Below are positions 9,533-59,211 of a stretch of DNA of 64,000 nt, one piece after another. Every line of letters begins with the position of its first letter. Within the stretch, counting starts at the first letter, position 1. The notes below the pieces were generated by a model. The model saw only the letters and a program-made list of their open reading frames with translations, did not search any database and was not told the DNA's origin. The stretch spans positions 5,972-69,971 of the forward strand of contig JAJRSM010000044.1 in the NCBI GenBank assembly GCA_024278765.1, given 5' to 3'. The position numbers and the translations under genes are program-made. The DNA comes from Deltaproteobacteria bacterium. Lineage in GTDB: Bacteria > Desulfobacterota > GWC2-55-46 > DRQE01.

Positions 9533-11209
9533 GTGTTTTTCAAGGCCGTATATAAAAGTGAGTCTTTGTCTGTGAATGAAGCTTATATATTAAATAAAGA
9601 TCGGTCAAAGATAACATTACCTTTGCTTATTGTCATTGTACTTGTAATTATGGCTGGTTTTTTCTTGCGCAGCTATAAGCTCTCTGCCGACCTTCCGTAT
9701 AAGGATTTAGGCCCGACTTGGGTTTTTGTCACCGACGAGGGTGCTTACCCGTATAGCGCTGCACATAAAGTTAAGTATGGTTCATGGCGCGTTGAAGATA
9801 CCTACTATGACGGTTGGACTATACGAGGCTATCAACTATGGGTTGAACAGTTTTTCAAGGGCGGAGGCGTTAACCTTACTTCGGCTCGCTTTGCCTCTGT
9901 AGTTGCTTTTACTCTTGCTTTGTTTTTCTTTGCCTTTGCACTTGCAAGGTATACGTCTTCATCTATGTCTGTTTTTTTTACAATATTTGCCGCTTCTAAT
10001 TTTCTTTTGCTTATGTGGTCCAGGTTTGCGAGCCCCTATGCGGTAAGCCTGCTGCCTATGGCTATTATATTTGCATGTTTTCTTATAGCAATGGCCAAAA
10101 AGAGTTACGCAGCCCTGATAACTGCTGGTGTTGTCACTTTCATTGCCTTTACGATAAAAGAGACCTCTATTATTTATCCCTCGATAGTTGTTATCTCGAT
10201 TATCATTGGCGATTGGCTTTATAGTGGTATGCCTCTTCATAGAGCAATCTTCAATAAGAAGGTATTGGTCTACTTGTTGGCATTTTTAATTCCTATGGCT
10301 CTTTATTATATTTTTTTTCTTAATCCAAATGCTACCGAGTGGTGGAATAGTTCTGCAAAACTTCAAAAGGATACGGTTGCTTCTATAGCCAACCTGAACA
10401 ATGCTGTTGCAGAAAATGTCGCAAAGCCGAATGCCTTTTATAAGTTATTTTTTAAGTATCTGGGGGCAAGACATATCCTGGCGTTATGGTTTCTTGCAGC
10501 CATAGGCATGGTAGTAGAAGGTTTACGTTATTTGTTCGCGCCCGGCTACAGGCGTAGCCTCTGGTCTTTGAGTTCTCTATTTATGGCCCTTTGGTTTTTA
10601 GGAATGTCTGTGGGGATGCTTGTTTTAAGGCTTGGCGGAGGCGTGGCAGAGCACTGGAATGTACTTTTTATCCTGCCTGTCTGTTATTTCGGCGCTGTGA
10701 CAGTGGCAAGTCTCTGGGAGATCGGCAAAGGTGCTTTTCTCCGTAGAGGTAGGACTGTAATGGTAGTAGCTGTCTTTTTGACAGCCATTGTTGTCTTCTC
10801 TGATATGAACAGGTACTACGCGTGGGCCACTACGCCGCTTGAAGATGAGGGTTTAAATTTTGCCGCCTCTGATATAGCAGAAAAGATTATGGAAAGGAGA
10901 GAGGGCTCCACTACGATTGTTATGATCGATGCAACATTCACTCTTTTGAGAGAAGAAAAAATTAATACGATTTTTGTGCGTAATTTCAACTTGAAAGATC
11001 TTCCGCGTATCTATAAACGCTGGAAACCCGGGTATATAGTCGTGCCAGATGATGGGGGTACTTTGTATTCTGTTGCTGTCATGCAAGAGCTTGCAGAAAG
11101 AGGGTTTATAGTAAAGCCGATAAATGAGACCTATCTTGGTTTTTTTGATCACAGAGATTTGAGCATGGTTACTTACGAACTTGCATATAGTCCTGCTGAT
11201 AAAACTTAA
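9533..11209 (+). CDS. GT-C fold membrane glycosyltransferase (GT39/ArnT-like), paralog 2.
   Basis: About 11 TM helices precede a soluble C-terminal domain, and the architecture matches ORFs 4461 and 12785. Confidence 0.55.
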   Translation: MFFKAVYKSESLSVNEAYILNKDRSKITLPLLIVIVLVIMAGFFLRSYKLSADLPYKDLGPTWVFVTDEGAYPYSAAHKVKYGSWRVEDTYYDGWTIRGYQLWVEQFFKGGGVNLTSARFASVVAFTLALFFFAFALARYTSSSMSVFFTIFAASNFLLLMWSRFASPYAVSLLPMAIIFACFLIAMAKKSYAALITAGVVTFIAFTIKETSIIYPSIVVISIIIGDWLYSGMPLHRAIFNKKVLVYLLAFLIPMALYYIFFLNPNATEWWNSSAKLQKDTVASIANLNNAVAENVAKPNAFYKLFFKYLGARHILALWFLAAIGMVVEGLRYLFAPGYRRSLWSLSSLFMALWFLGMSVGMLVLRLGGGVAEHWNVLFILPVCYFGAVTVASLWEIGKGAFLRRGRTVMVVAVFLTAIVVFSDMNRYYAWATTPLEDEGLNFAASDIAEKIMERREGSTTIVMIDATFTLLREEKINTIFVRNFNLKDLPRIYKRWKPGYIVVPDDGGTLYSVAVMQELAERGFIVKPINETYLGFFDHRDLSMVTYELAYSPADKT

Positions 11210-12791
11210 TGGTTTGTTCTGTAGCTTTAAGTTTTTTACTCTAATCTCAAAAAGGTTATTTTTCATGTTTATGTTGTTCGGAGGTGATTTTAAATTTTCA
11301 AGTAAGATTGTGCTGCCATGGTTGTGTTTCGTTGTCTTTGCATTTTTTCTGGCTTTTATTGGAGTAATTAGTCTTGCTGCATTATTGATTCTGACAATAT
11401 GTCCTTCTCTGGCTCTGGTTTTTTTATTTTCTCCCAAGGTTGGTTTAATGGTTATTGTGTTAATAAGGACCTCCCTTGATGCCTTTGCTCAAAAAATAAT
11501 ATTGGAGTCTCTTGGGAATACCTACTTTAATCTACAAATGATACTCACTGTGGAGATTATCGTTATATTAAGTGTCATGGTATTTATTTTCTTTATAACA
11601 AGAAAAGCTGAATTTAAAAACTGGTCGTTCCTCTTGGCCGCCGGAGCTTTTTTACTGTATTGTCTGATCTCTGTATTCTTCAGTTCTGATCTTTTTAATG
11701 CCTTGCATGCGTATCTTAGGTATTTGACATGGATACTTCTGATGGTATCGATCTTGATCTTTGTGAAAACAAAAGCAGATATTGACCGTTTTATGGTAGT
11801 AGGAATGATGGCTGCTATACTGCCTGTTTTAAGCGTTTTATGGGATATAGGTAATGGCGCAACCCTTGGGAGTCATTATGGCATTAATGATATTAAAGGC
11901 GTATATGACAATCCGCCTAAAATGGCAAGCGTACTTTTTGCTGTATTGCCGTTTTCAATATTTAAGGTTGAGCAGTCTTTGCAGACAAAGGGTAAGTGGG
12001 GTTGGGAGCGGCTTTCATTGTTTCTTCTTCCAGTTATCTTTATAGGCGTTTTATATACATATTACAGGGCTGTATGGTTAGCCGTTATATCTTCTTTAGC
12101 AATCACAACACTGTATTACATTAAAACTTCCAGACTGTATTTTATTATTTTTATTGTTTTATTATCTTTGTTTGTCTGGCAAAATATTGATCATATCAGG
12201 TTTAAGATGAGAGATTCGCCTTTGCAGTTGATCGAGAAGAAGATGGATGTTCTTTTAAAATTTGTTCAAGTGGAGAAGAAGATGGATATTCCTTTAAAAT
12301 TTGTTCAAGTGGAACATGAAGTCCTTGACTACGGTTCAGGGCGTCTGAGGATCTGGAGCAATATTGTTAATGCCTGGCTTGATGCGCCTATATATAAAAA
12401 AGTCTTCGGTTTCGGCATGTCTTCATCGGTTGAAATGTCGGGGCGCACGAATAAAGCGGGGATTATATCCAATGCGCACAATGATTTCCTTGCACTCTTG
12501 ATAAACCAGGGGGTATTGGGGCTGGGGCTTTTCTTTTGGCTGGTCTATGAAATATTAAGGCCTATACTGGTGCTTTTGAGGAGGGCTAAGGACCCATATT
12601 ATAGATGTCTAGCCGTTGTCTCTTTTTCGTTGATCCTTGCTTGTTTTTTTCTGGCGATGACATTTTTATTGTTGCAAACAATGGCTGTGATGTTTTATGT
12701 TGCAATTTTCTTGGCTCTAACATTGGTAGCCTGTAATTTGAGTATTAAATCCTGTAACGACGATGATAAGGCAGGTACATGTAAGTGGTAG
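11181..12791 (+). CDS. O-antigen ligase (WaaL/Wzy_C) family membrane protein; the true start is probably an internal Met near 11266.
   Basis: The protein is polytopic with a large periplasmic loop and the conserved NAHNDFLALLINQGVLG motif (H-N-D-x-L). Confidence 0.7.
   Translation: MHIVLLIKLNGLFCSFKFFTLISKRLFFMFMLFGGDFKFSSKIVLPWLCFVVFAFFLAFIGVISLAALLILTICPSLALVFLFSPKVGLMVIVLIRTSLDAFAQKIILESLGNTYFNLQMILTVEIIVILSVMVFIFFITRKAEFKNWSFLLAAGAFLLYCLISVFFSSDLFNALHAYLRYLTWILLMVSILIFVKTKADIDRFMVVGMMAAILPVLSVLWDIGNGATLGSHYGINDIKGVYDNPPKMASVLFAVLPFSIFKVEQSLQTKGKWGWERLSLFLLPVIFIGVLYTYYRAVWLAVISSLAITTLYYIKTSRLYFIIFIVLLSLFVWQNIDHIRFKMRDSPLQLIEKKMDVLLKFVQVEKKMDIPLKFVQVEHEVLDYGSGRLRIWSNIVNAWLDAPIYKKVFGFGMSSSVEMSGRTNKAGIISNAHNDFLALLINQGVLGLGLFFWLVYEILRPILVLLRRAKDPYYRCLAVVSFSLILACFFLAMTFLLLQTMAVMFYVAIFLALTLVACNLSIKSCNDDDKAGTCKW
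12226..12310 (+). repeat. In-frame tandem duplication of 39 bp (two 13-codon units, EKKMDVLLKFVQV and EKKMDIPLKFVQV) inside the ligase gene.
   Basis: Two adjacent near-identical 39-nt units differing at three positions were read directly from the sequence. Confidence 0.8.
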
Positions 12792-27847: not shown

Positions 27848-27864
27848 TTATTAGTAACGAGATC

Positions 27865-28054
27865 TTAGGGTTAATAACTGCCCATGGCGGGTCGAAGGCT
27901 GCAAACAAGAACGGTGTTAGGTCTTTGACTGGAGACTTCGAATAATGAGTTTTGAGATTTTAGGGTTGATAACCGCCCATGGCGGGTCGAAGGCTGCAAA
28001 CTAGAATGGTGTTAGGTCTTTGACTGGAGACTTCGAATAATGAGTTTTGAGATT
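27865..28054 (+). repeat. Tandem repeat of two 95-bp units (27865-27959, 27960-28054), with a third unit continuing into the gene from 28055; each unit is the leader plus first about 17 codons of the downstream cytidylyltransferase gene. A 19-codon decoy ORF runs 27945-28004.
   Basis: The period is 95 bp with about 93% identity between units; the decoy reads MSFEILGLITAHGGSKAAN* against the real start MSFEILGLITARGGSKTV. Confidence 0.85.
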
Positions 28055-28765
28055 TTAGGGCTTATAACCGCCCGTGGCGGTTCAAAGACCGTTCCTAAGA
28101 AGAACATTAAGGATCTGGGGGGTAAGCCTCTGCTCGCCTATACCATTGAAGAGGCACGTAAGACAGGGCTAATTAGCAGGCTTATTATTAGCACTGACTG
28201 CGAGGAGATTGCAGCGGTTGCCATGGACTATGGCTGTGAAGTTCCTTTTATGAGGCCTTCCGAGTTTGCCGGCGATATGGTCCAGGATTTGCCTGTTTTT
28301 GAGCATGCTCTTAAGTGGCTTGAAAGGGAAGAGGGGTATAGCTCTGATATGGTCGTGCATCTGAGGCCCACCGCCCCGCTTCGCAGGGTTACGCATATAG
28401 AGGGCGCGATAAAGACGCTCATTGCTCACCCCGATGCCGACTCGGTGCGTTCGGTATGTTTAGCACCCAAGCATCCGCTAAAGATGTGGAGAATTGAAGG
28501 AGACCGGTTGGTCTCTTATATACCTGCCGAGGTAAGCGGAATTAAGGAGTCTTACAATTATCCTCGCCAGAAATTGCCGGAGGCTTACGTGCAGAACGGA
28601 TCGGTCGATGTGATAAGGAGGAAGACTATTACCGATATGGGAACGATGAGTGGTGACCTTATAGTACCGTATGTGATGGAGGAGGAAGATTCTATTAATA
28701 TTGATACTTTCATGGACTTTGCTATGGCTGAGATCTTGCTGCGCGATAGGTTGGCCGAATTTTAA
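28040..28765 (+). CDS. Acylneuraminate (CMP-nonulosonate) cytidylyltransferase family protein.
   Basis: GLITARGGSKTVPKKNIKDLGGKPLLAYTI is the CMP-NeuAc/Pse/Leg/KDN synthetase N-terminal motif. Confidence 0.85.
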   Translation: MSFEILGLITARGGSKTVPKKNIKDLGGKPLLAYTIEEARKTGLISRLIISTDCEEIAAVAMDYGCEVPFMRPSEFAGDMVQDLPVFEHALKWLEREEGYSSDMVVHLRPTAPLRRVTHIEGAIKTLIAHPDADSVRSVCLAPKHPLKMWRIEGDRLVSYIPAEVSGIKESYNYPRQKLPEAYVQNGSVDVIRRKTITDMGTMSGDLIVPYVMEEEDSINIDTFMDFAMAEILLRDRLAEF

Positions 28766-36562: not shown

Positions 36563-37981
36563 GTGAAGGCAAGACATTTTTCACTGCGCCCGTTGGCGAT
36601 ATTTCTTGATATCATAACCATACTGCTGTCCTTTTACGTCTCTTTTATTCTGCGTGGTGTGCTTCTGCGTTTTTATCAGTTCGGCAATGTTACAGAGTTG
36701 CATGATTACGTCTACGTCTTGATAATTGTCCTTGCCGGTTCAATATGGCTTCTGACTATTTTTGGTGCTTACAAAAAACCTATGTTTGTCTCTCTATGGA
36801 AGGAGCTACAGATAGTTGTAAAGGTCGTAGTCCTGGGTTCGTTGATACTTTTTGCAGGTATTTTCTTTTTGCAGCTGGATGTATCGTTCCTACCAAGAAC
36901 CTTTATGCTGCTCTTTTTACTGGTCAACTTTTCTATCTTAATCTTTCAAAAGACGATTATGTATTCTCTTATGAGCAGAGAACGTATGAAGGGAGTCGGT
37001 CTTCAGAGTGCCATTGTAGTTGGCGACGGTGATGGGGTTGCGCGTTTCTTGCATACGTTAAAGGTTCATCCCGAGTATGGCTTGAAGGCAATCGGTGTTT
37101 TCTGTGATGACGAATCAACCGCCTCTACAGTTAAGGATTTAGCTACACTTGGCCCTGTAGAAGGGTTAGGAGACTTTCTTCACAAAAACCATGTTGACGA
37201 GGTTATTATTATACCTGAGAAAGACGTTAATATAGAGGAAATATTAGTGGTCTGTGAAGAAGAAGGTGTCAAGACAAGGATCGTGCCGGATCTTCTAAAC
37301 AGGCTTGATATTGATGTCGCGCTCGACAGACTTGGCGATATGATTGCTATTAATCTTTACGGTCATCATGAAAAAGAATGGCAGATATTCTTTAAGCGTG
37401 CTATGGATATTACCGTATCCGCAATAATGATCTTATTGCTTTCACCAATCTTAATAGCGATATCTATTGCTATTAAGATAAACTCTCCGGGGCCTGTCTT
37501 TTACCATTGGAGGGTCATGGGTTTTAATAAAAAGCCCTTTACAAGCTGGAAGTTCAGGACGATGATCGTTAATGCCGATGAGATGAAAAAAGAGCTTATC
37601 AAAGAAAATGAAATGAGCGGCCCTGTCTTTAAGATCAAGAACGACCCGAGGATCACCCCTATCGGGCGGGTTCTCAGGAGGTTCAGCATGGATGAACTAC
37701 CTCAGCTCTTCAGTGTCCTAAAAGGGGATATGAGCCTTGTCGGCCCAAGGCCTCCACTGGTATCAGAGGTGGAAAAATTCGAACGTTGGCATGGCAAGAA
37801 ACTTCGGATCAAACCTGGGATAACGTGCCTCTGGCAGGTAAGCGGACGAAATGCGATAAAAGATTTTGACGAGTGGGTACGCCTGGATGTAAAATATATT
37901 GAGAACTGGTCGCTCTGGCTGGATATTAAAATATTATTTAAGACAATACCAGCTGTCTTTTTGGAACAGGACATTAACTAA
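36563..37981 (+). CDS. Polyprenyl-phosphate hexose-1-phosphate transferase, a WbaP/PglC-family priming glycosyltransferase.
   Basis: TM helices, a CoA-binding-like domain and a C-terminal 'bacterial sugar transferase' domain (FKIKNDPRITPIGRVLRRFSMDELPQLFSVLKGDMSLVGPRP) are present. Confidence 0.88.
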   Translation: MKARHFSLRPLAIFLDIITILLSFYVSFILRGVLLRFYQFGNVTELHDYVYVLIIVLAGSIWLLTIFGAYKKPMFVSLWKELQIVVKVVVLGSLILFAGIFFLQLDVSFLPRTFMLLFLLVNFSILIFQKTIMYSLMSRERMKGVGLQSAIVVGDGDGVARFLHTLKVHPEYGLKAIGVFCDDESTASTVKDLATLGPVEGLGDFLHKNHVDEVIIIPEKDVNIEEILVVCEEEGVKTRIVPDLLNRLDIDVALDRLGDMIAINLYGHHEKEWQIFFKRAMDITVSAIMILLLSPILIAISIAIKINSPGPVFYHWRVMGFNKKPFTSWKFRTMIVNADEMKKELIKENEMSGPVFKIKNDPRITPIGRVLRRFSMDELPQLFSVLKGDMSLVGPRPPLVSEVEKFERWHGKKLRIKPGITCLWQVSGRNAIKDFDEWVRLDVKYIENWSLWLDIKILFKTIPAVFLEQDIN

Positions 37982-37982
37982 G

Positions 37983-38045
37983 ATGAAGCTACTCGTGACC
38001 GGCGGAGCCGGAAGAAGTGTTTGCTACAGGCAGGATATTAAATGA
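37983..38045 (+). other. Twenty-codon upstream ORF (MKLLVTGGAGRSVCYRQDIK) formed by a partial duplication of the 5' end of the downstream epimerase gene; its stop overlaps the real start (ATGA).
   Basis: Nucleotides 37983-38012 are about 85% identical to 38042-38071. Confidence 0.6.
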
Positions 38046-39175
38046 AGATACTTGTAACCGGCGGAGCCGGGTTTATTGGCTCTCATACTGTTGACGCACT
38101 TTTGCTTAAAGGGCATGAGGTGCGTATCCTCGATAGCTTTGAGAAACCAGTACATCTTAAGGGCAGGCCGAGCTATATACCAAAAGAGGTCGAGGTCATT
38201 GAGGGCGACGTGCGTGATAAGGCTGCGTGGGAAGAAGCCCTTGTTGGTATCGATGCAGTCTATCATTTTGCTGCTTATCAGGATTATCTGCCGGATTTTT
38301 CCAAGTTCTTTCATGTCAATAGCGTTGGGACTTCTTTGCTTTACGAGGTCGCTGTTGAACGTAAACTGCCGCTTCAGAAGGTAGTCGTAGCCTCTTCGCA
38401 GGCGGTATACGGCGAGGGCAGGCATAACTGCCCTGCCTGCAAGACGGCGTATTACCCTGATATCCGCAGTTCTGATGTCATGGATCGTGCGCAGTGGAAT
38501 CATAGGTGTCCTACCTGTAAAGGCCCTTTAGAGTTCAGTCAGACCGATGAGTCCCGTATAAATCCGCAGAACCAATACGCACTTAGTAAATATACGCAAG
38601 AACTTATAGCCATTAACTTTGGTCGTCGTTATAATATACCAACAGCTGCTATGCGCTACTCTATCGTACAGGGGCCGAGACAATCTTTTTATAATGCTTA
38701 TTCTGGGGCGTGTAGGATTTTCTGTCTGAGATATTTCTTTGATCGGTCTCCGGCGATATACGAGGACGGCAACCAAGTACGTGACTTTGTAAATATCAAG
38801 GATGTTGTAGCAGCCAATATTGCTGTTCTTGAAAGTGATAAGGCCGATTACGAGGTCTTTAATGTTGGCGGAGGCCATGCCTATACCGTCTTCGAGTTTG
38901 ACGCGACCGTCAGGAAGGTCTTTGGTAAAGAGGCCATGGCGCCGCGCATCCCAGGTGAATATAGGTTTGGCGATACTCGTCATATATTATCAGATGTGAG
39001 TAAACTTAAAGCCCTTGGCTGGAAGCCCGAATCTACGCCCGAGGATAGCGTAAGAGAATATATGGAGTGGTTAAAGAGTCAGGTCGATATCGAAGACGTC
39101 CTGGATTACGCAGAGCAGAAGATGAAGGATATGGATGTGGTTAGAAAGGCTGACCTAAAAGGAGATACCCTATGA
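38042..39175 (+). CDS. NAD-dependent epimerase/dehydratase (SDR) carrying an inserted CxxC...CxxC zinc-ribbon segment.
   Basis: MKILVTGGAGFIGSH is the SDR N-terminus; the insertion reads NCPACKTAYYPD...HRCPTCKG. Confidence 0.75.
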   Translation: MKILVTGGAGFIGSHTVDALLLKGHEVRILDSFEKPVHLKGRPSYIPKEVEVIEGDVRDKAAWEEALVGIDAVYHFAAYQDYLPDFSKFFHVNSVGTSLLYEVAVERKLPLQKVVVASSQAVYGEGRHNCPACKTAYYPDIRSSDVMDRAQWNHRCPTCKGPLEFSQTDESRINPQNQYALSKYTQELIAINFGRRYNIPTAAMRYSIVQGPRQSFYNAYSGACRIFCLRYFFDRSPAIYEDGNQVRDFVNIKDVVAANIAVLESDKADYEVFNVGGGHAYTVFEFDATVRKVFGKEAMAPRIPGEYRFGDTRHILSDVSKLKALGWKPESTPEDSVREYMEWLKSQVDIEDVLDYAEQKMKDMDVVRKADLKGDTL

Positions 39176-40161
39176 TAATCACCCAGACGCCTTTGCGGAT
39201 CAGTCTTTTTGGCGGAGGTACGGACTTTAAGGATTTCTACCAGAAAGACGGCGGAGCTGTCTTGAGTCTTGGTATTGATAAGTATATCTACGTAATAGTC
39301 AAAGAGCGTTTTGATGAAGATATCTATATAAATTATTCCAAAAAAGAAATTGTAAAGTGTGTTGACGATATCGAGCATGAGCTTGTAAAAGAGTCGATGC
39401 GAAAGACCGGTGTAAAGGCCGGTATAGAGATAACGACCTTGGCTGATATACCCAGCGAGGGTAGTGGGCTTGGCTCGTCATCAAGTGTTACCGTAGGGCT
39501 TTTAAATGCCCTCTATGCCTATCAGGGTGAGCAGGTAACGCTTGAGCAGCTGGCACGTGAGGCATGTGAGATAGAGATTGATATCCTAGGCAAGCCAATC
39601 GGCGTGCAGGATCAGTATATAGCCGCCTACGGAGGTTTGCGTTTTATCGAGTTTAGTAAAGATGGTAGTATTACCGTTGAGCGGATGCCGCTGAAGGAAG
39701 AAGAAAAGAGGCGGCTCGTATCAAACTTACTAATATTCTATACGGGTAAGACCCGCAGCTCTTCTAATGTATTGACTGAGCAGAAGGCGAATATAGGTAA
39801 GAGGCTGACAGAACTTGGCACGATAAAAGATCTTGCATATAGTGCAAAAGAGCAGATACTCGCAGGTGATATCGATAATGTCGGTGCTCTGATGCAGAAG
39901 GGTTGGGAGGCTAAAAAGAAGCTCGCCTCTAATGTGACGACCCCGGAGATAGACGAGCTATACGCTAAGGCAATCGTTGCCGGCGCGCTCGGTGGTAAGA
40001 TTTCAGGGGCAGGCTCTGGTGGTTTTTTGCTTCTGTATTGCCCACGTGAGGTGCAGAACTCAGTACGCGAGGCGATGAACGGCCATATGGAGTTGCCTTT
40101 CCTACTTAGCCGAGACGGCAGTAAGGTGATATTTAACAACAGAGGCTATGAGTGGAAATGA
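39172..40161 (+). CDS. GHMP-family sugar kinase (D-glycero-D-manno-heptose 7-phosphate kinase HddA-like).
   Basis: The GHMP motif PSEGSGLGSSSSVTVG is present, and the gene sits between an epimerase and nucleotidyltransferase/GmhA genes. Confidence 0.7.
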   Translation: MIITQTPLRISLFGGGTDFKDFYQKDGGAVLSLGIDKYIYVIVKERFDEDIYINYSKKEIVKCVDDIEHELVKESMRKTGVKAGIEITTLADIPSEGSGLGSSSSVTVGLLNALYAYQGEQVTLEQLAREACEIEIDILGKPIGVQDQYIAAYGGLRFIEFSKDGSITVERMPLKEEEKRRLVSNLLIFYTGKTRSSSNVLTEQKANIGKRLTELGTIKDLAYSAKEQILAGDIDNVGALMQKGWEAKKKLASNVTTPEIDELYAKAIVAGALGGKISGAGSGGFLLLYCPREVQNSVREAMNGHMELPFLLSRDGSKVIFNNRGYEWK

Positions 40162-40859
40162 AGGCCGTTCTGCTCGCCGCAGGGAAGGGGACAAGGCTGC
40201 GCCCATTGACCGATTCAGTGCCAAAGTGTCTGATCCCTATCGGCGGCGAGCCAATGCTCACCATATGGTTGCGTTTGCTGAAGAAACATGGTATAGAAGA
40301 AGTCCTTATTAATACGCATTATCACGCAGAGCGAGTAGATGATTTTCTGGCCAGTGATGATTCCGGGGTCAAGGTCAAGGCCGTATACGAAGAAGAGCTA
40401 CTTGGTAGCGCCGGTACGGTACTGGCAAATAGAGATTTTTTCAGAGATGAAAAAGATTTTTTTATTATCTATGCCGACAACCTGACCAATATGAATATTA
40501 CTAAGATGGCAAAATTTCACCGGTGCAATAACAAAAAAGGCCTTCTTACTATGGGGCTGCACAGGGCTACGAACCCGCAGGCCTGCGGCATAGCAGGCAC
40601 TGACAAGGACGGTCTGATAACGTCTTTTGTAGAGAAGCCGGAGCACCCTGAATCTAACCTTGCAAATGCCGGTGTATACGTCGCTGGCCAAGAGATCTTC
40701 GACTATATACCGCAGAGAAAAGGGGTTGTGGACCTTGGTTTTGATCTTCTGCCGATTTTGGTCAATAAGATGTATGGCTATGAAATAGAAGAATACCTTT
40801 TGGATATCGGTACGTTAGATAACTACGAACGCGCTAACAAAGAGTGGAGCAACGAATGA
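40152..40859 (+). CDS. Sugar-1-phosphate nucleotidyltransferase (HddC-like heptose-1-P guanylyltransferase candidate).
   Basis: MKAVLLAAGKGTRLRPLTDSVPKCLIPIGGEPML is the family's N-terminal motif. Confidence 0.75.
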   Translation: MEMKAVLLAAGKGTRLRPLTDSVPKCLIPIGGEPMLTIWLRLLKKHGIEEVLINTHYHAERVDDFLASDDSGVKVKAVYEEELLGSAGTVLANRDFFRDEKDFFIIYADNLTNMNITKMAKFHRCNNKKGLLTMGLHRATNPQACGIAGTDKDGLITSFVEKPEHPESNLANAGVYVAGQEIFDYIPQRKGVVDLGFDLLPILVNKMYGYEIEEYLLDIGTLDNYERANKEWSNE

Positions 40860-41449
40860 GTAAAGATTTTTTCGACCACTATATAGAAGAAGAACAGAGG
40901 CTGCTTGGCGAGATCTCGGAGGCGGAGTTTAATAAGGTGATAGAGCTCTTTCAGACTGCTTATGAAGATGGCAGGCAGGTCTTTGTCTTTGGCAATGGCG
41001 GCAGCGGCTCGACGGCCTCGCACTTTGCCTGCGATATCAATAAAGGGGTCTCCTACGGCCATGACAAACGCTTTAAGGTTATCTGCCTCAATGACAATAT
41101 AGCGACAATACTCGCCTATGCCAATGACACCTCGTATAATGATATTTTTGTTGAGCAGCTTAAGAACTTCATGCAGCCTGGAGATCTGGTCTTTGGAATA
41201 TCCGGCAGTGGAAACTCAGAGAATGTCCTGCGTGCTGTGGAGTATGGTAATGGTAACAGTGCGATAACATTAGGTTTTACAGGCTTTTCGGGTGGCAGGC
41301 TTGGTAAGGTTGCCGAATTATCTATAAATGTGGCCTCAGAAGATATGCAGAAGATCGAGGATATACACCTAATTATGACCCATATGATAATGCAGAGTTT
41401 CTGTAAGAAACTAGGCCTGCCTTGTAAAAAAGACGGTGAAAAGAGCTAA
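40844..41449 (+). CDS. gmhA: SIS-domain sedoheptulose-7-phosphate isomerase.
   Basis: VFVFGNGGSGSTASHFACD and a length of about 200 aa match GmhA. Confidence 0.85.
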   Translation: MEQRMSKDFFDHYIEEEQRLLGEISEAEFNKVIELFQTAYEDGRQVFVFGNGGSGSTASHFACDINKGVSYGHDKRFKVICLNDNIATILAYANDTSYNDIFVEQLKNFMQPGDLVFGISGSGNSENVLRAVEYGNGNSAITLGFTGFSGGRLGKVAELSINVASEDMQKIEDIHLIMTHMIMQSFCKKLGLPCKKDGEKS

Positions 41450-41452
41450 GTT

Positions 41453-42058
41453 GTGAATGAATGCACTATATATTTGATCCGTCACGGCGAGATACTTTCT
41501 AATAAAGACGACGTCTATGCCGGCTGGAGTGGTGAAGAACTTACTGAGCAGGGGCGAGCCTCTGCCCAGAACCTCGGTAAAGAGGCCAAAGACTGGAGTA
41601 TTGAGGCTATCTATACCAGCCCTATCAGAAGGGCCGTTCAGACGGCAGAAATAATCAATAGCTATCTCGGTAAAGAACTCTTTACCGAGGATGGTTTGAA
41701 AGAGATAAAGATGGGGCCTTGGGAAGGGCTGCGTATCGGTGATGTTGAGGAGCGTTTCCCTGAAGATTTCAAAACATGGCAAACAAGGCCAGGCGATTTA
41801 AGGGTAGAGGGCAGAGAGACACTGGAAGAGTTGCAAAGAAGAACTGTAACTGCGGTGATGAAGATATTTAAAGCCCACAGCGGTGCTGTCCTTGCCGTAA
41901 CCCATGTAGCTATAATTCGTGTACTTTTTCTTTACTATAACTACAGGCCTTTAAACGATTATAAGAAGATAGATGTCCCAAACCTCTCGGTCTTTAAACT
42001 CACCTTATCATCCGGATCCGGCGGGTCCGGGAAGAGCGCGAGTTTTACTCCTTTATAA
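41453..42058 (+). CDS. Histidine phosphatase (phosphoglycerate mutase-like) family protein.
   Basis: IYLIRHGE is the catalytic His motif. Confidence 0.75.
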   Translation: MNECTIYLIRHGEILSNKDDVYAGWSGEELTEQGRASAQNLGKEAKDWSIEAIYTSPIRRAVQTAEIINSYLGKELFTEDGLKEIKMGPWEGLRIGDVEERFPEDFKTWQTRPGDLRVEGRETLEELQRRTVTAVMKIFKAHSGAVLAVTHVAIIRVLFLYYNYRPLNDYKKIDVPNLSVFKLTLSSGSGGSGKSASFTPL

Positions 42059-58656: not shown

Positions 58657-59211
58657 TTATATTTTATTCTTCTCAACCTCGTCCTTAGGAGGTCTGACTA
58701 TCCAAGCACCGGGCTGTTTAAATCTCTTCGATATTATGGCAGAGGTCTTTTTGGCATCCGTTGCTGTATTGAAAAAACCAACCCTTACTCTATGCCAGTT
58801 AACATCGTCCTTTATAAAGGTCGTTACGTAAGCATTATAGCCGGCACTATCTATGGCTCGCTCTAGACGTCTTGCATATTTTTCGCCGTGAAATGACGCT
58901 ACGTGTATAGCATATACCCCACGCTTTACAGCCTTCGCCGTAGCGGCCTTCGCCGTGGCAGCTTTAGCTGGGGCAGCTAAAGCTGGGGCAGCTAAAGCTG
59001 GGGCCGTAGTAGTCTGAGTGCTAGCAGCAGGCTTTGTCGGGTCAGTTACACGGATGCTTTTGCGTACAACCATGTCATCGGTCTCAGGCGTCTCGCCTCC
59101 AGATGATAGAAAAAATATTATCGCCCCACCGCTTATAATTATCAACGCAGCGATGATCAGGAAAAGCCGACTATTCTTTGCCTTTGAATTGGTATTTAAT
59201 CTATTGTTCAC
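58657..59211 (-). CDS. SPOR-domain peptidoglycan-binding protein with an N-terminal TM anchor and an Ala/Pro-rich repeat linker.
   Basis: The C-terminal SPOR fold (YAIHVASFHGEKYARRL...WHRVRVGFF) and the linker APALAAPALAAPAKAATAKAATAKA are present. Confidence 0.8.
   Translation of the reverse strand: MNNRLNTNSKAKNSRLFLIIAALIIISGGAIIFFLSSGGETPETDDMVVRKSIRVTDPTKPAASTQTTTAPALAAPALAAPAKAATAKAATAKAVKRGVYAIHVASFHGEKYARRLERAIDSAGYNAYVTTFIKDDVNWHRVRVGFFNTATDAKKTSAIISKRFKQPGAWIVRPPKDEVEKNKI

What the first reader, a model, noticed from the sequence alone, without database searches (positions are those of the whole stretch)
37983..38071. Second case of 5'-end duplication: a 20-codon uORF mimicking the epimerase N-terminus and overlapping its start codon (ATGA)
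ATGAAGCTACTCGTGACCGGCGGAGCCGG at 37983 closely copies the true start ATGAAGATACTTGTAACCGGCGGAGCCGG at 38042 and encodes MKLLVTGGAGRSVCYRQDIK*. Its TGA stop shares nucleotides with the real ATG. With the 27.9 kb repeat, this makes two genes in the locus whose N-terminal Rossmann or CMP-transferase motifs are duplicated upstream. That pattern fits a gene-replacement junction created by homologous recombination between conserved 5' ends, which would be direct evidence of cassette shuffling. It may alternatively be a translationally coupled leader peptide.
Basis: seen in the sequence. Interest (0 to 1): 0.55.

Follow-up and report, generated by a model that had tools for sequence, protein, structure and literature searches.

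The report
Tandem-duplicated gene start forming a uORF
The 59 bases in front of this sugar-epimerase gene are a leftover from a small tandem duplication of the gene's own start region, a repeat that relatives carry in 0 to 4 copies, and not the scar of a replaced gene.

Summary
Bases 37983-38011 match the epimerase start at 38042-38070 at 26 of 29 positions. They open a 20-codon ORF (MKLLVTGGAGRSVCYRQDIK*) whose TGA overlaps the real ATG.

Inside the window the match is only slightly better than another SDR start gives (23-24 of 29). Related loci settle the question:
- The closest fully syntenic relative (L010) has a single transferase/epimerase junction. The window carries 59 extra bases.
- Four other lineages carry the same unit (the 29-mer, always broken at GCCGG|AA, plus a spacer) in 2-4 relic copies.
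- Two loci whose flanks are 99.3-99.5% identical (L016, L027) have different arrays.
- The spacers derive from the last ~85 nt of the upstream glycosylphosphotransferase gene.

So this is a tandem duplication across the gene junction, covering the epimerase's translation-initiation region, that has since behaved like a minisatellite. No relative has a full epimerase gene upstream, and there is no window-specific identity break at the junction. The gene-replacement reading is therefore not supported.

The leader-peptide reading stays open. The layout resembles a natural bicistronic coupling element, with the stop overlapping the start and the SD lying inside the uORF. However, the peptide is not conserved and some relic copies have lost their ATG. 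Interest is moderate.

The parts
36563..37981 (+). Polyprenyl glycosylphosphotransferase gene (initiating sugar transferase, 472 aa). Its stop TAA is at 37979-37981, 1 nt before the relic ATG.
   Evidence: Pfam Bac_transf + CoA_binding_3. NCBIfam TIGR03025, 418 bits against a cut-off of 296. 92% aa identity to the L010 and L016 orthologues.
37902..37930 (+). Segment of the transferase 3' region (AGAACTGGTCGCTCTGGCTGGATATTAAA) that is the parent sequence of the spacer.
   Evidence: Local alignment to 38013-38042, 24 matches in 30 columns. Significance. The long spacers of L027, L016 and L015 are colinear with the last ~85 nt of the transferase gene.
37983..38011 (+). Relic copy of the first 29 nt of the epimerase gene (ATG plus 9 2/3 codons, MKLLVTGGAG). 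It ends at the conserved break GCCGG|AA.
   Evidence: The same relic with the same break is found in L015, L016, L027, L118, L120 and L121.
37983..38045 (+). uORF of 20 codons plus stop (MKLLVTGGAGRSVCYRQDIK*). Its stop overlaps the epimerase ATG in the ATGA (-4) configuration.
37999..38011 (+). GC-rich palindrome CCGGC-GGA-GCCGG (5-bp stem, 3-nt loop) at the 3' edge of the relic. The duplication junction lies directly after it.
   Evidence: Read from the sequence. The twin palindrome at 38058-38070 was picked up as a stem-loop. In the MFE fold the two palindromes pair with each other, but z = -1.48, which is not significant.
38012..38041 (+). 30-nt spacer AAGAAGTGTTTGCTACAGGCAGGATATTAA: a decayed copy of the transferase 3' region. 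It carries the Shine-Dalgarno-like AGGA (38032-38035), 6 nt before the real ATG.
   Evidence: 23/30 identical to the L015 spacer. Aligns with the spacers of L118, L016 and L027 (alignment A1).
38042..39175 (+). Intact SDR epimerase/dehydratase gene (377 aa), first gene of the heptose cassette. Its first 29 nt (38042-38070) are the parent copy of the repeat.
   Evidence: Pfam Epimerase / GDP_Man_Dehyd. 86-91% aa identity to P0122-P0125.
39172..42058 (+). Rest of the cassette: HddA-like GHMP kinase, HddC-like nucleotidyltransferase, GmhA-like SIS isomerase and a histidine phosphatase (an NDP-heptose-type pathway). It always travels with the epimerase in relatives.
   Evidence: Synteny.
27859..28087 (+). 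Second array of the same kind: a 95-nt tandem repeat (2.4 copies) made of the leader plus the first ~75 nt of the PseF-like cytidylyltransferase gene 28040..28765.
   Evidence: L010 has a 95-nt, 3.1-copy array at the same gene.

Best explanation
In an ancestor of this group of uncultured Thermodesulfobacteriota-like bacteria, about 110-125 nt spanning the gene junction was duplicated in tandem. The segment ran from roughly 85-95 nt before the end of the glycosylphosphotransferase gene to base +29 of the epimerase gene. A tandem duplication across a junction leaves the upstream gene intact on the left and the downstream gene intact on the right. Two partial pieces are trapped between them: an epimerase start (the 29-mer) followed by a transferase tail (the spacer). 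The transferase-derived part then decayed, and an internal deletion produced the 59/60-nt unit. Misalignment between the 29-nt direct repeats (replication slippage or unequal exchange) has since added, removed and homogenised units, so relatives carry 0-4 relic units. The window keeps one old unit that differs from the real start at 3 of 29 positions. The relic still has an ATG, sits 1 nt after the transferase stop, and reads in the frame that ends in the ATGA of the real start. The spacer supplies an AGGA 6 nt before that start. Ribosomes are therefore expected to translate a 20-residue peptide of no importance in itself and be handed on to the epimerase start, which would make the insertion harmless to operon expression. 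Shown here: the homology of both halves of the unit, the single shared break point, and the copy-number and structural variation among relatives. Inferred: the founding event, the slippage mechanism, and translation or coupling of the uORF.
For: 1. L010 (transferase 92% aa, fully syntenic) has a single junction...GGAACAGGACATTAATTAAG|GTGAAGATACTAGTAACAGGCGGGGCCGGTTTT. The window has 59-60 extra nt exactly there.
2. Origin of the spacer. The window spacer scores 26 against the transferase 3' 150 nt, against shuffles of 13.5 +/- 2.4 (0/500). L016 spacer 3 (1/500) and the two L015 spacers (1/500 against L010) are also significant. There is no similarity to the epimerase sequence that follows the 29-mer. 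The long spacers are colinear with the transferase tail through to the ATG.
3. The same unit occurs elsewhere. L015 has copies at 1420 and 1479 plus the real start at 1578. L016 has 5723, 5783, 5846, 5941 plus real 6001. L027 has 3 relics plus the real start. L118 has 3 relics of period 59 plus the real start (TRF: 3.5 copies, 83% matches). All are broken at GCCGG|AAG or GCCGG|AAAG. The units align at 83% mean column identity.
4. Fast structural turnover. L016 and L027 are 99.3-99.5% identical in both flanking genes, yet their arrays differ in unit number and content.
5. Decay. Relic copies have lost the ATG (ATA in L016 R1 and L027 R1, ACG in L118 R2), carry non-synonymous changes (L to P, T to A, GG to DR), and uORF tails differ between lineages (RSVCYRQDIK against SSLCCRQEIG).
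6. Independent short-read contigs (L120, L121) end inside the array, as expected of a real repeat.
7. Every pair of relatives shows the epimerase diverging 5-8 points more than the transferase, so there is no window-specific break.
Against: Between the window and L015, four-fold sites of the epimerase are only 50.7% identical (third positions 58.5%). The relic unit is 48/59 = 81% identical with no indel. This is more conserved than simple neutral decay predicts, so some constraint (SD, start, coupling) or gene conversion from the real start has to be invoked. Arrays descended from one founder junction persist in at least three lineages whose synonymous sites are nearly saturated, although direct repeats this close should be lost easily. 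A second array of the same design sits at another gene of the same locus and is also kept in a relative, which hints at something more than accident. The founding duplication itself is reconstructed, not observed. The short 30-nt spacers of L016 and L027 are not individually significant against the transferase; they are tied to it only through the unit alignment and the long spacers.
Confidence: 0.7

Rival explanations
1. The unit is a maintained, functional element: a natural 'bicistronic' translation-initiation device and/or an expression rheostat. Each unit carries an SD, a start codon and a short ORF that ends on or next to the next start codon. Ribosomes are thus relayed from the transferase gene to the epimerase gene and unwind the GC-rich hairpins on the way. 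Changes in unit number by slippage would tune or switch expression of the heptose-modification cassette, as a contingency locus does.
For: The stop/start geometry is the classic coupling geometry. The window and L027 have -4 (ATGA), L118 has -1 (TAATG) and L015 has TAG immediately before ATG, so 4 of 5 lineages have the gene-proximal uORF ending at the real start. NTGA and TAATG are the spacings enriched in coupled pairs (PMC12548453). The SD of the real gene lies inside the uORF, as in engineered bicistronic designs (PMC8601185). The unit is more conserved than synonymous sites (81% against 51-58%). Copy number differs between loci whose flanks are 99.3-99.5% identical. A second TIR array sits at the nonulosonate cytidylyltransferase gene, also kept in L010. 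Both genes concern surface-sugar decoration.
Against: Peptide tails are not conserved, and 7 nt differences in the spacer give 5 aa changes. Several relic copies lack a start codon or stop early: L016 R1 and R4, L027 R1 and R2, L118 R1 and R2. With a 59-nt period the ATGA stop comes for free, and 10 stop-free codons are expected about 57% of the time, so open uORFs are not statistically remarkable. Close relatives do without any unit (L010, L013, L017). The predicted RNA structure is not better than shuffles (z = -1.48) and there is no Rfam match. The window's own relic has only a poor SD (AGGA 12 nt upstream).
Confidence: 0.2
2. One reading: the relic is the stump of a different, resident epimerase gene. 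It would have been left when an incoming cassette, carrying its own upstream flank, replaced the resident gene by recombination in the conserved 5' ends.
For: The heptose cassette does have different left-hand neighbours in relatives: the 472-aa transferase in the window, L010 and L016; a GT2 in L013, L017 and L118; a membrane protein in L015. Epimerase similarity does not follow locus architecture, since the window is closest to L118 and L015 while L010 is closest to L013. Identity to L010 falls from 82.4% to 75.2% across the junction.
Against: No relative has a full gene where the relic sits. The spacer is homologous to the resident transferase tail, and the unit recurs as a tandem array with one common break point, which homologous replacement cannot generate. 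The identity drop is the same in all pairs. L118 against L013 shows no identity step at the cassette border. Equal homologous recombination between 5' ends leaves no duplication.
Confidence: 0.05
3. Chance resemblance between SDR gene starts, or an assembly artefact that concatenated strain variants.
For: Another SDR start in the window reaches 23-24/29. The data are metagenome assemblies. The 59-nt period equals a common assembler k-mer size (my observation, not tested).
Against: An intergenic MKLLVTGGAG ORF directly after a stop codon is not expected by chance (0.00 expected). The same unit is found in assemblies from different projects and samples: NCBI MAGs, JGI 3300003877 and 3300003876, ENA UOEZ01 and two Logan runs. 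These have differing copy numbers, diverged copies and a spacer that matches neither flank exactly.
Confidence: 0.03

Closest known systems
Bacterial minisatellites / VNTR loci formed by small tandem duplications and changed by misalignment between short direct repeats (RecA-independent slippage and template switching; my knowledge, cf. PMC7145654 found)
   Same: Head-to-tail units of 59-99 nt. Copy number and unit content differ between near-identical strains. Gene-proximal copies are identical while distal ones have decayed. Assemblies break inside the array.
   Different: The unit is neither anonymous intergenic DNA nor an in-frame coding repeat. It is the junction of two genes, so every unit re-creates the downstream gene's SD, start codon and first ten codons. 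The array persists across lineages whose synonymous sites are nearly saturated.
Translational coupling through overlapping stop/start codons, and the engineered 'bicistronic design' (short leader cistron with the second SD inside it and its stop overlapping the start; PMC12548453, PMC8601185)
   Same: The 20-codon leader ORF ends in ATGA on the real start (TAATG or TAG-ATG in relatives). The AGGA for the real start lies inside the leader ORF. The leader ORF itself starts 1 nt after the upstream gene's stop.
   Different: The leader arose by duplicating the gene's own start, so it mimics the protein's N-terminus. Translation is not demonstrated, peptide tails vary, some units are dead, and relatives lacking the unit exist.
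Gene remnants at module junctions of O-antigen/capsule loci, taken as scars of cassette exchange (my knowledge)
   Same: A truncated gene start at the boundary of a sugar-pathway cassette, in a locus whose cassette neighbours differ between relatives.
   Different: The remnant is a copy of the adjacent intact gene itself, paired with a copy of the adjacent upstream gene's tail and tandemly repeated. This is the signature of local duplication and not of replacement.
CRISPR array (format resemblance only: 29-nt repeats with ~30-nt spacers)
   Same: Repeat length, spacer length, and a partially palindromic repeat.
   Different: The spacers are homologous to one another and to the transferase gene tail. 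The last repeat is the start of a conserved protein-coding gene. Spacer lengths range from 30 to 70 nt.

Membership tests
Tandem-duplication array (minisatellite/VNTR) | Units lie head to tail and are homologous to one another | tested here: met
   Window: relic plus spacer, then the real start, at spacing 59. L118: period 59, 3.5 copies, 83% matches. Unit alignment A1: 83% mean column identity.
Tandem-duplication array (minisatellite/VNTR) | Copy number varies among close relatives | tested here: met
   Relic units number 0 (L010, L013, L017), 1 (window), 2 (L015), 3 (L027, L118) and 4 (L016). L016 and L027 flanks are 99.3-99.5% identical.
Tandem-duplication array (minisatellite/VNTR) | Both halves of the unit derive from the sequence flanking the array (duplication of local DNA) | tested here: met
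   The 29-mer equals the epimerase start. The spacer matches the transferase tail (0/500 shuffles for the window).
Translationally coupled leader ORF / natural bicistronic element | The leader ORF's stop overlaps or abuts the downstream start codon | tested here: met
   ATGA at 38042-38045. ATGA, TAATG or TAG-ATG in L027, L118 and L015. Not met in L016, where the stop lies 15 nt upstream.
Translationally coupled leader ORF / natural bicistronic element | The downstream gene's SD lies inside the leader ORF | tested here: met
   AGGA at 38032-38035, 6 nt before the ATG. AGGAGA or AAGGAG at the same place in relatives.
Translationally coupled leader ORF / natural bicistronic element | The leader ORF is translated and downstream expression depends on it | not testable with these tools
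   Needs ribosome profiling or reporter fusions.
Translationally coupled leader ORF / natural bicistronic element | The leader ORF is conserved under selection in relatives | tested here: inconclusive
   The unit is 81% identical between the window and L015, against 51% at four-fold sites. However, peptide tails differ, several copies lack an ATG, and three relatives have no unit.
Gene-replacement scar (remnant of a displaced allele) | A full-length version of the remnant gene occupies that position in some relative | tested here: not met
   All nine related junctions examined show either a single junction or the tandem array. None has a second SDR gene.
Gene-replacement scar (remnant of a displaced allele) | An abrupt, lineage-specific change of sequence identity at the remnant | tested here: not met
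   The 82% to 75% drop against L010 is matched by the same transferase/epimerase difference in every pair.
Leader-peptide transcription attenuator | Alternative terminator/antiterminator structures downstream of the leader ORF | tested here: not met
   The only 'terminator-like' hit is the 5-bp Rossmann-codon hairpin inside the real gene. Fold z = -1.48. No Rfam family.
CRISPR array | Unrelated spacers between identical repeats | tested here: not met
   The spacers are homologous to each other and to the transferase gene tail.

The most novel reading that the evidence does not exclude
Tandem arrays of a gene's own translation-initiation region (SD, ATG and the first ~10-25 codons) may be a maintained device in this lineage. 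Slippage-driven changes in unit number would tune or switch translation of surface-sugar modification genes: the heptose cassette here and the nonulosonate cytidylyltransferase at 27.9 kb. That would be a long-period, translation-level counterpart of contingency loci, built from N-terminus-mimicking, serially coupled uORFs.
Probability: 0.15. Interest if true: 0.7.

Novelty: new variant of a known kind. Interest (0 to 1): 0.42.

Why it matters
The result corrects a tempting inference. A truncated gene start at a cassette border in a polysaccharide locus looks like a recombination scar, but here comparison with relatives shows a local tandem duplication of the gene junction. It also documents something unusual for bacteria. 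A 59-99-nt repeat built from a gene's own ribosome-binding site and start has survived long divergence, changes copy number between loci with 99.3-99.5% identical flanks, and has a twin at a second sugar gene in the same locus. If unit number affects translation, this would be a new route to variable expression of surface glycans in environmental sulfate-reducer relatives. If it does not, it is still a clean natural example of how a junction duplication is tolerated because it recreates a coupled leader ORF. It is also a practical warning for gene callers and assemblers, since contigs break at the repeat and false starts appear.

Tried and rejected
- TRF on the window region found nothing, because there is only one diverged unit. 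The array nature emerged only from relatives.
- Exact look-ups of the window's transferase and epimerase, and of P0121 (listed as 100% identical), found no contig.
- The genome-contig scan with the transferase gave only one close hit (L001), and that contig is cut inside the gene.
- The metagenome pattern scan returned 99 stretches, but only L027 is a true array. The rest are unrelated matches.
- I considered that the spacer might be the continuation of an SDR coding sequence. There is no similarity to the epimerase sequence after the 29-mer (scores at shuffle level). Similarity to the other SDR gene is weaker (19; 3/500) than to the transferase tail (26; 0/500).
- I considered in-situ duplication followed by purely neutral drift of a single 59-nt unit. 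The longer 95-99-nt units in relatives show that the 59-nt unit is a deletion derivative.
- I considered a cassette swap between L118 and L013 as direct evidence of shuffling at the array. There is no identity step.
- The 456-aa transferases of L013, L017, L018 and L118 are not orthologues of the window's (about 30% identity). A 'gene order flipped by duplication and loss' scenario was therefore dropped.
- An RNA structure or riboswitch reading found no support: no Rfam hit and z = -1.48.
- A link to the neighbouring XerC-like recombinase was considered but not pursued. The 29-mer does not resemble a dif-type site by my own inspection, and the gene is conserved next to glnD in all architectures.
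Full report
**1. The observation**

The transferase gene 36563..37981 ends with TAA at 37979-37981. One base later comes ATGAAGCTACTCGTGACCGGCGGAGCCGG (37983-38011), then 30 nt (38012-38041), then the epimerase start ATGAAGATACTTGTAACCGGCGGAGCCGG (38042-38070).

- The two 29-mers are 26/29 identical at a spacing of 59.
- The upstream copy opens MKLLVTGGAGRSVCYRQDIK*, and its TGA overlaps the real ATG.
- With up to 3 mismatches the 29-mer occurs only at these two places, against 0.00 expected from shuffles.

Among the other SDR starts in the window, the one in gene 34341..35402 matches the two copies at 23 and 24 of 29. From the window alone, therefore, 'copy of this gene's start' cannot be told apart from 'start of some SDR gene'. 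The question needs related loci.

**2. Context**

- 36563..37981 is a polyprenyl glycosylphosphotransferase (Bac_transf; TIGR03025 above its cut-off).
- 38042..39175 is an SDR epimerase/dehydratase.
- It is followed by an HddA-like GHMP kinase, an HddC-like nucleotidyltransferase, a GmhA-like isomerase and a histidine phosphatase. Together these form an NDP-heptose-type cassette.
- Next come a XerC-like recombinase and GlnD on the other strand.
- The closest public relatives are uncultured Thermodesulfobacteriota-type MAGs and vent or sediment metagenome contigs.

**3. The closest syntenic relative has one junction**

L010 (GCA_964493925.1) has a transferase 92% identical in protein and the same gene order from the radical-SAM gene to the recombinase. 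Its junction reads ...GGAACAGGACATTAATTAAG GTGAAGATACTAGTAACAGGCGGGGCCGGTTTT. A global alignment places a 59-60-nt insertion in the window at exactly this point. No relative examined has a second epimerase gene there.

**4. The same unit is a multi-copy array in other relatives**

| Locus | Upstream gene | Relic units | Positions and notes |
|---|---|---|---|
| L015 | different (membrane protein) | 2 | 1420, 1479, real 1578; spacers 30 and 70 nt; the first spacer is 23/30 identical to the window's |
| L016 | same transferase | 4 | 5723, 5783, 5846, 5941, real 6001; spacers 31, 34, 66, 31 nt |
| L027 (hydrothermal vent metagenome) | same transferase | 3 | spacers 31, 68, 66 nt |
| L118 / L119 | GT2 glycosyltransferase | 3 | all period 59; TRF 3.5 copies, 83% matches |
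| L120 / L121 (two Logan runs) | same transferase | incomplete | contigs stop inside the array |

Every relic copy ends at the same base, GCCGG|AAG or GCCGG|AAAG. Eight 59/60-nt units from five loci align with 83% mean column identity. L013/L014, L017, L011/L012 and L018 have no relic.

**5. What the spacer is**

- The window spacer aligns to AGAACTGGTCGCTCTGGCTGGATATTAAA inside the transferase 3' region (37902-37930). It scores 26 against shuffles of 13.5 +/- 2.4, with 0 of 500 shuffles reaching that score.
- It shows no similarity to the epimerase sequence that follows the 29-mer.
- The long spacers of L016, L027 and L015 are colinear with the last ~65-85 nt of the transferase gene right up to the start codon.
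- The short spacers correspond to the two ends of the long ones. L027 spacer A shares its first ~18 nt and its last 15 nt with spacer D.

The unit is therefore [transferase tail + epimerase bases 1-29]. This is what remains between two intact genes after a tandem duplication that spans their junction. The 59/60-nt unit is an internal-deletion derivative of a ~95-nt unit. One shared break point implies one founding event.

**6. Dynamics**

- L016 and L027 are 99.3-99.5% identical in both flanking genes (four-fold sites 97.7%), yet their arrays differ in number and content of units.
- Copies next to the gene are 29/29 identical to the real start. Distal copies have decayed: ATG to ATA or ACG, L to P, T to A, GG to DR.
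- L015's lineage-specific TTA codon is shared by its relics.

This is the behaviour of a minisatellite evolving by misalignment between short direct repeats. That mechanism is inferred from general knowledge and was not tested. The break point lies directly after a perfect CCGGC-GGA-GCCGG palindrome, which may have favoured the founding event. This too is speculation. The three relatives without relic units that I checked for it (L010, L013, L017) read ACAGGCGGGGC(C/T)GG, which lacks the perfect palindrome, but this may simply reflect phylogeny.

**7. Gene replacement?**

Not supported. The fall in identity to L010 across the junction (82.4% to 75.2%) recurs in all pairs: transferase 85-88% against epimerase 77-82%. 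It therefore reflects gene-specific rates. Homologous exchange between 5' ends would leave no duplicate.

Cassette neighbours do differ in the clade, and epimerase similarity does not follow locus architecture. The window groups with L118 and L015, while L010 groups with L013. Reassortment has therefore happened at some time. I could not locate a breakpoint: L118 against L013 shows no identity step. The array travels with the cassette and does not mark the event.

**8. Function?**

The anatomy is that of a coupled leader cistron:
- The relic ATG is 1 nt after the transferase stop.
- The uORF ends in the -4 ATGA configuration.
- AGGA sits 6 nt before the real ATG, inside the uORF.

In relatives the gene-proximal uORF ends at ATGA (L027), TAATG (L118) or TAG-ATG (L015). 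In L016 it stops 15 nt early. NTGA and TAATG are the spacings enriched in coupled gene pairs (PMC12548453). The layout equals the engineered bicistronic design (PMC8601185).

The unit is also better conserved between the window and L015 (48/59, no indels) than four-fold sites of the adjacent gene (50.7%).

Against a selected function:
- The peptide tails differ.
- Several units are dead.
- With a 59-nt period the ATGA stop comes for free, and ten stop-free codons are not unusual.
- Three relatives lack the unit.
- The predicted RNA structure is not better than shuffles (z = -1.48).
- No Rfam family matches.

My reading is that the duplication is tolerated because it recreates coupling, and that it is not maintained for its own sake. 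I give the functional alternative about 0.2.

**9. The second case**

The array at 27859-28087 (95 nt, 2.4 copies) is the leader plus the first ~75 nt of a PseF-like cytidylyltransferase gene. L010 has a 95-nt, 3.1-copy array at the same gene. Its copies are 99% identical to one another, but the unit differs from the window's. Both are tandem arrays of the translation-initiation region kept in relatives, and neither is a replacement scar. This recurrence is the main reason I keep a non-trivial probability for a functional or mechanistically special explanation.

**10. Verdict**

The preferred interpretation (a gene-replacement junction) is not supported. The alternative (a coupled leader) is open. 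The best explanation is a tandem duplication of the gene junction, followed by minisatellite-like turnover (confidence 0.7). I class it as a new variant of known kinds, namely VNTRs and coupled leader ORFs. Interest is moderate.

Noticed in passing
window 27859-28087; L010 1194-1492: A 95-nt tandem array (2.4 copies, 92% matches) made of the leader plus the first ~75 nt of the PseF-like cytidylyltransferase gene 28040..28765. The relic ORF reads MSFEILGLITAHGGSKAAN*. L010 has a 95-nt, 3.1-copy array at the orthologous gene, with copies 99% identical to each other but a unit sequence unlike the window's, which suggests concerted evolution. The unit contains a CCGCC-CAT-GGCGG hairpin analogous to the one in the epimerase 29-mer. 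TRF did not detect it in L027.
   Followed up: partly
window 37955-37981: The transferase C-terminus is ...AVFLEQDIN* in the window but ...AVFLGTGH* in L010 and L016. A 1-nt deletion near 37960 shifts the frame and moves the stop to 1 nt before the relic ATG.
   Followed up: partly
L011 9437-9600; L012; L018 833-900: More distant orthologues of the epimerase carry N-terminal extensions built from low-complexity or short-repeat DNA at the same junction: a G9 run and AGAGTTAGAG motifs in L011, and AAACCTCAA(G/A)CCTCA repeats in L018. The 5' border of this gene seems generally prone to repeat insertion.
   Followed up: no
L013, L017, L118 vs window, L010, L016, L027: The same five-gene heptose cassette sits in two locus architectures at the same chromosomal site (next to xerC-like and glnD). 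In one it follows the 472-aa transferase. In the other it lies between a GT2 and a different 456-aa transferase (~30% identical). Epimerase similarity does not follow architecture.
   Followed up: partly
JGI sample 3300003877 (L013, L016, L118): Three related populations in one metagenome carry 0, 4 and 3 relic units respectively.
   Followed up: no
L120 4510 (contig end); L121 1884 (contig end): Two independent Logan assemblies terminate inside the array, one of them exactly at the end of the second 29-mer. This shows that the repeat breaks short-read assemblies.
   Followed up: yes
window 12234-12313: A 39-nt unit duplicated in tandem (2.1 copies, 95% matches) inside ORF 11181..12791. It is an in-frame 13-codon duplication.
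   Followed up: no
window 58957-59004: A 15-nt tandem repeat, 3.2 copies (GGCAGCTAAAGCTGG), inside the minus-strand ORF 58657..59211.
   Followed up: no
window 37950-38100: Each 29-mer ends in a self-complementary CCGGCGGAGCCGG, so the two copies can also pair with each other. The MFE fold does this and encloses the real SD and ATG in the loop, but the energy is not better than shuffles (z = -1.48).
   Followed up: partly
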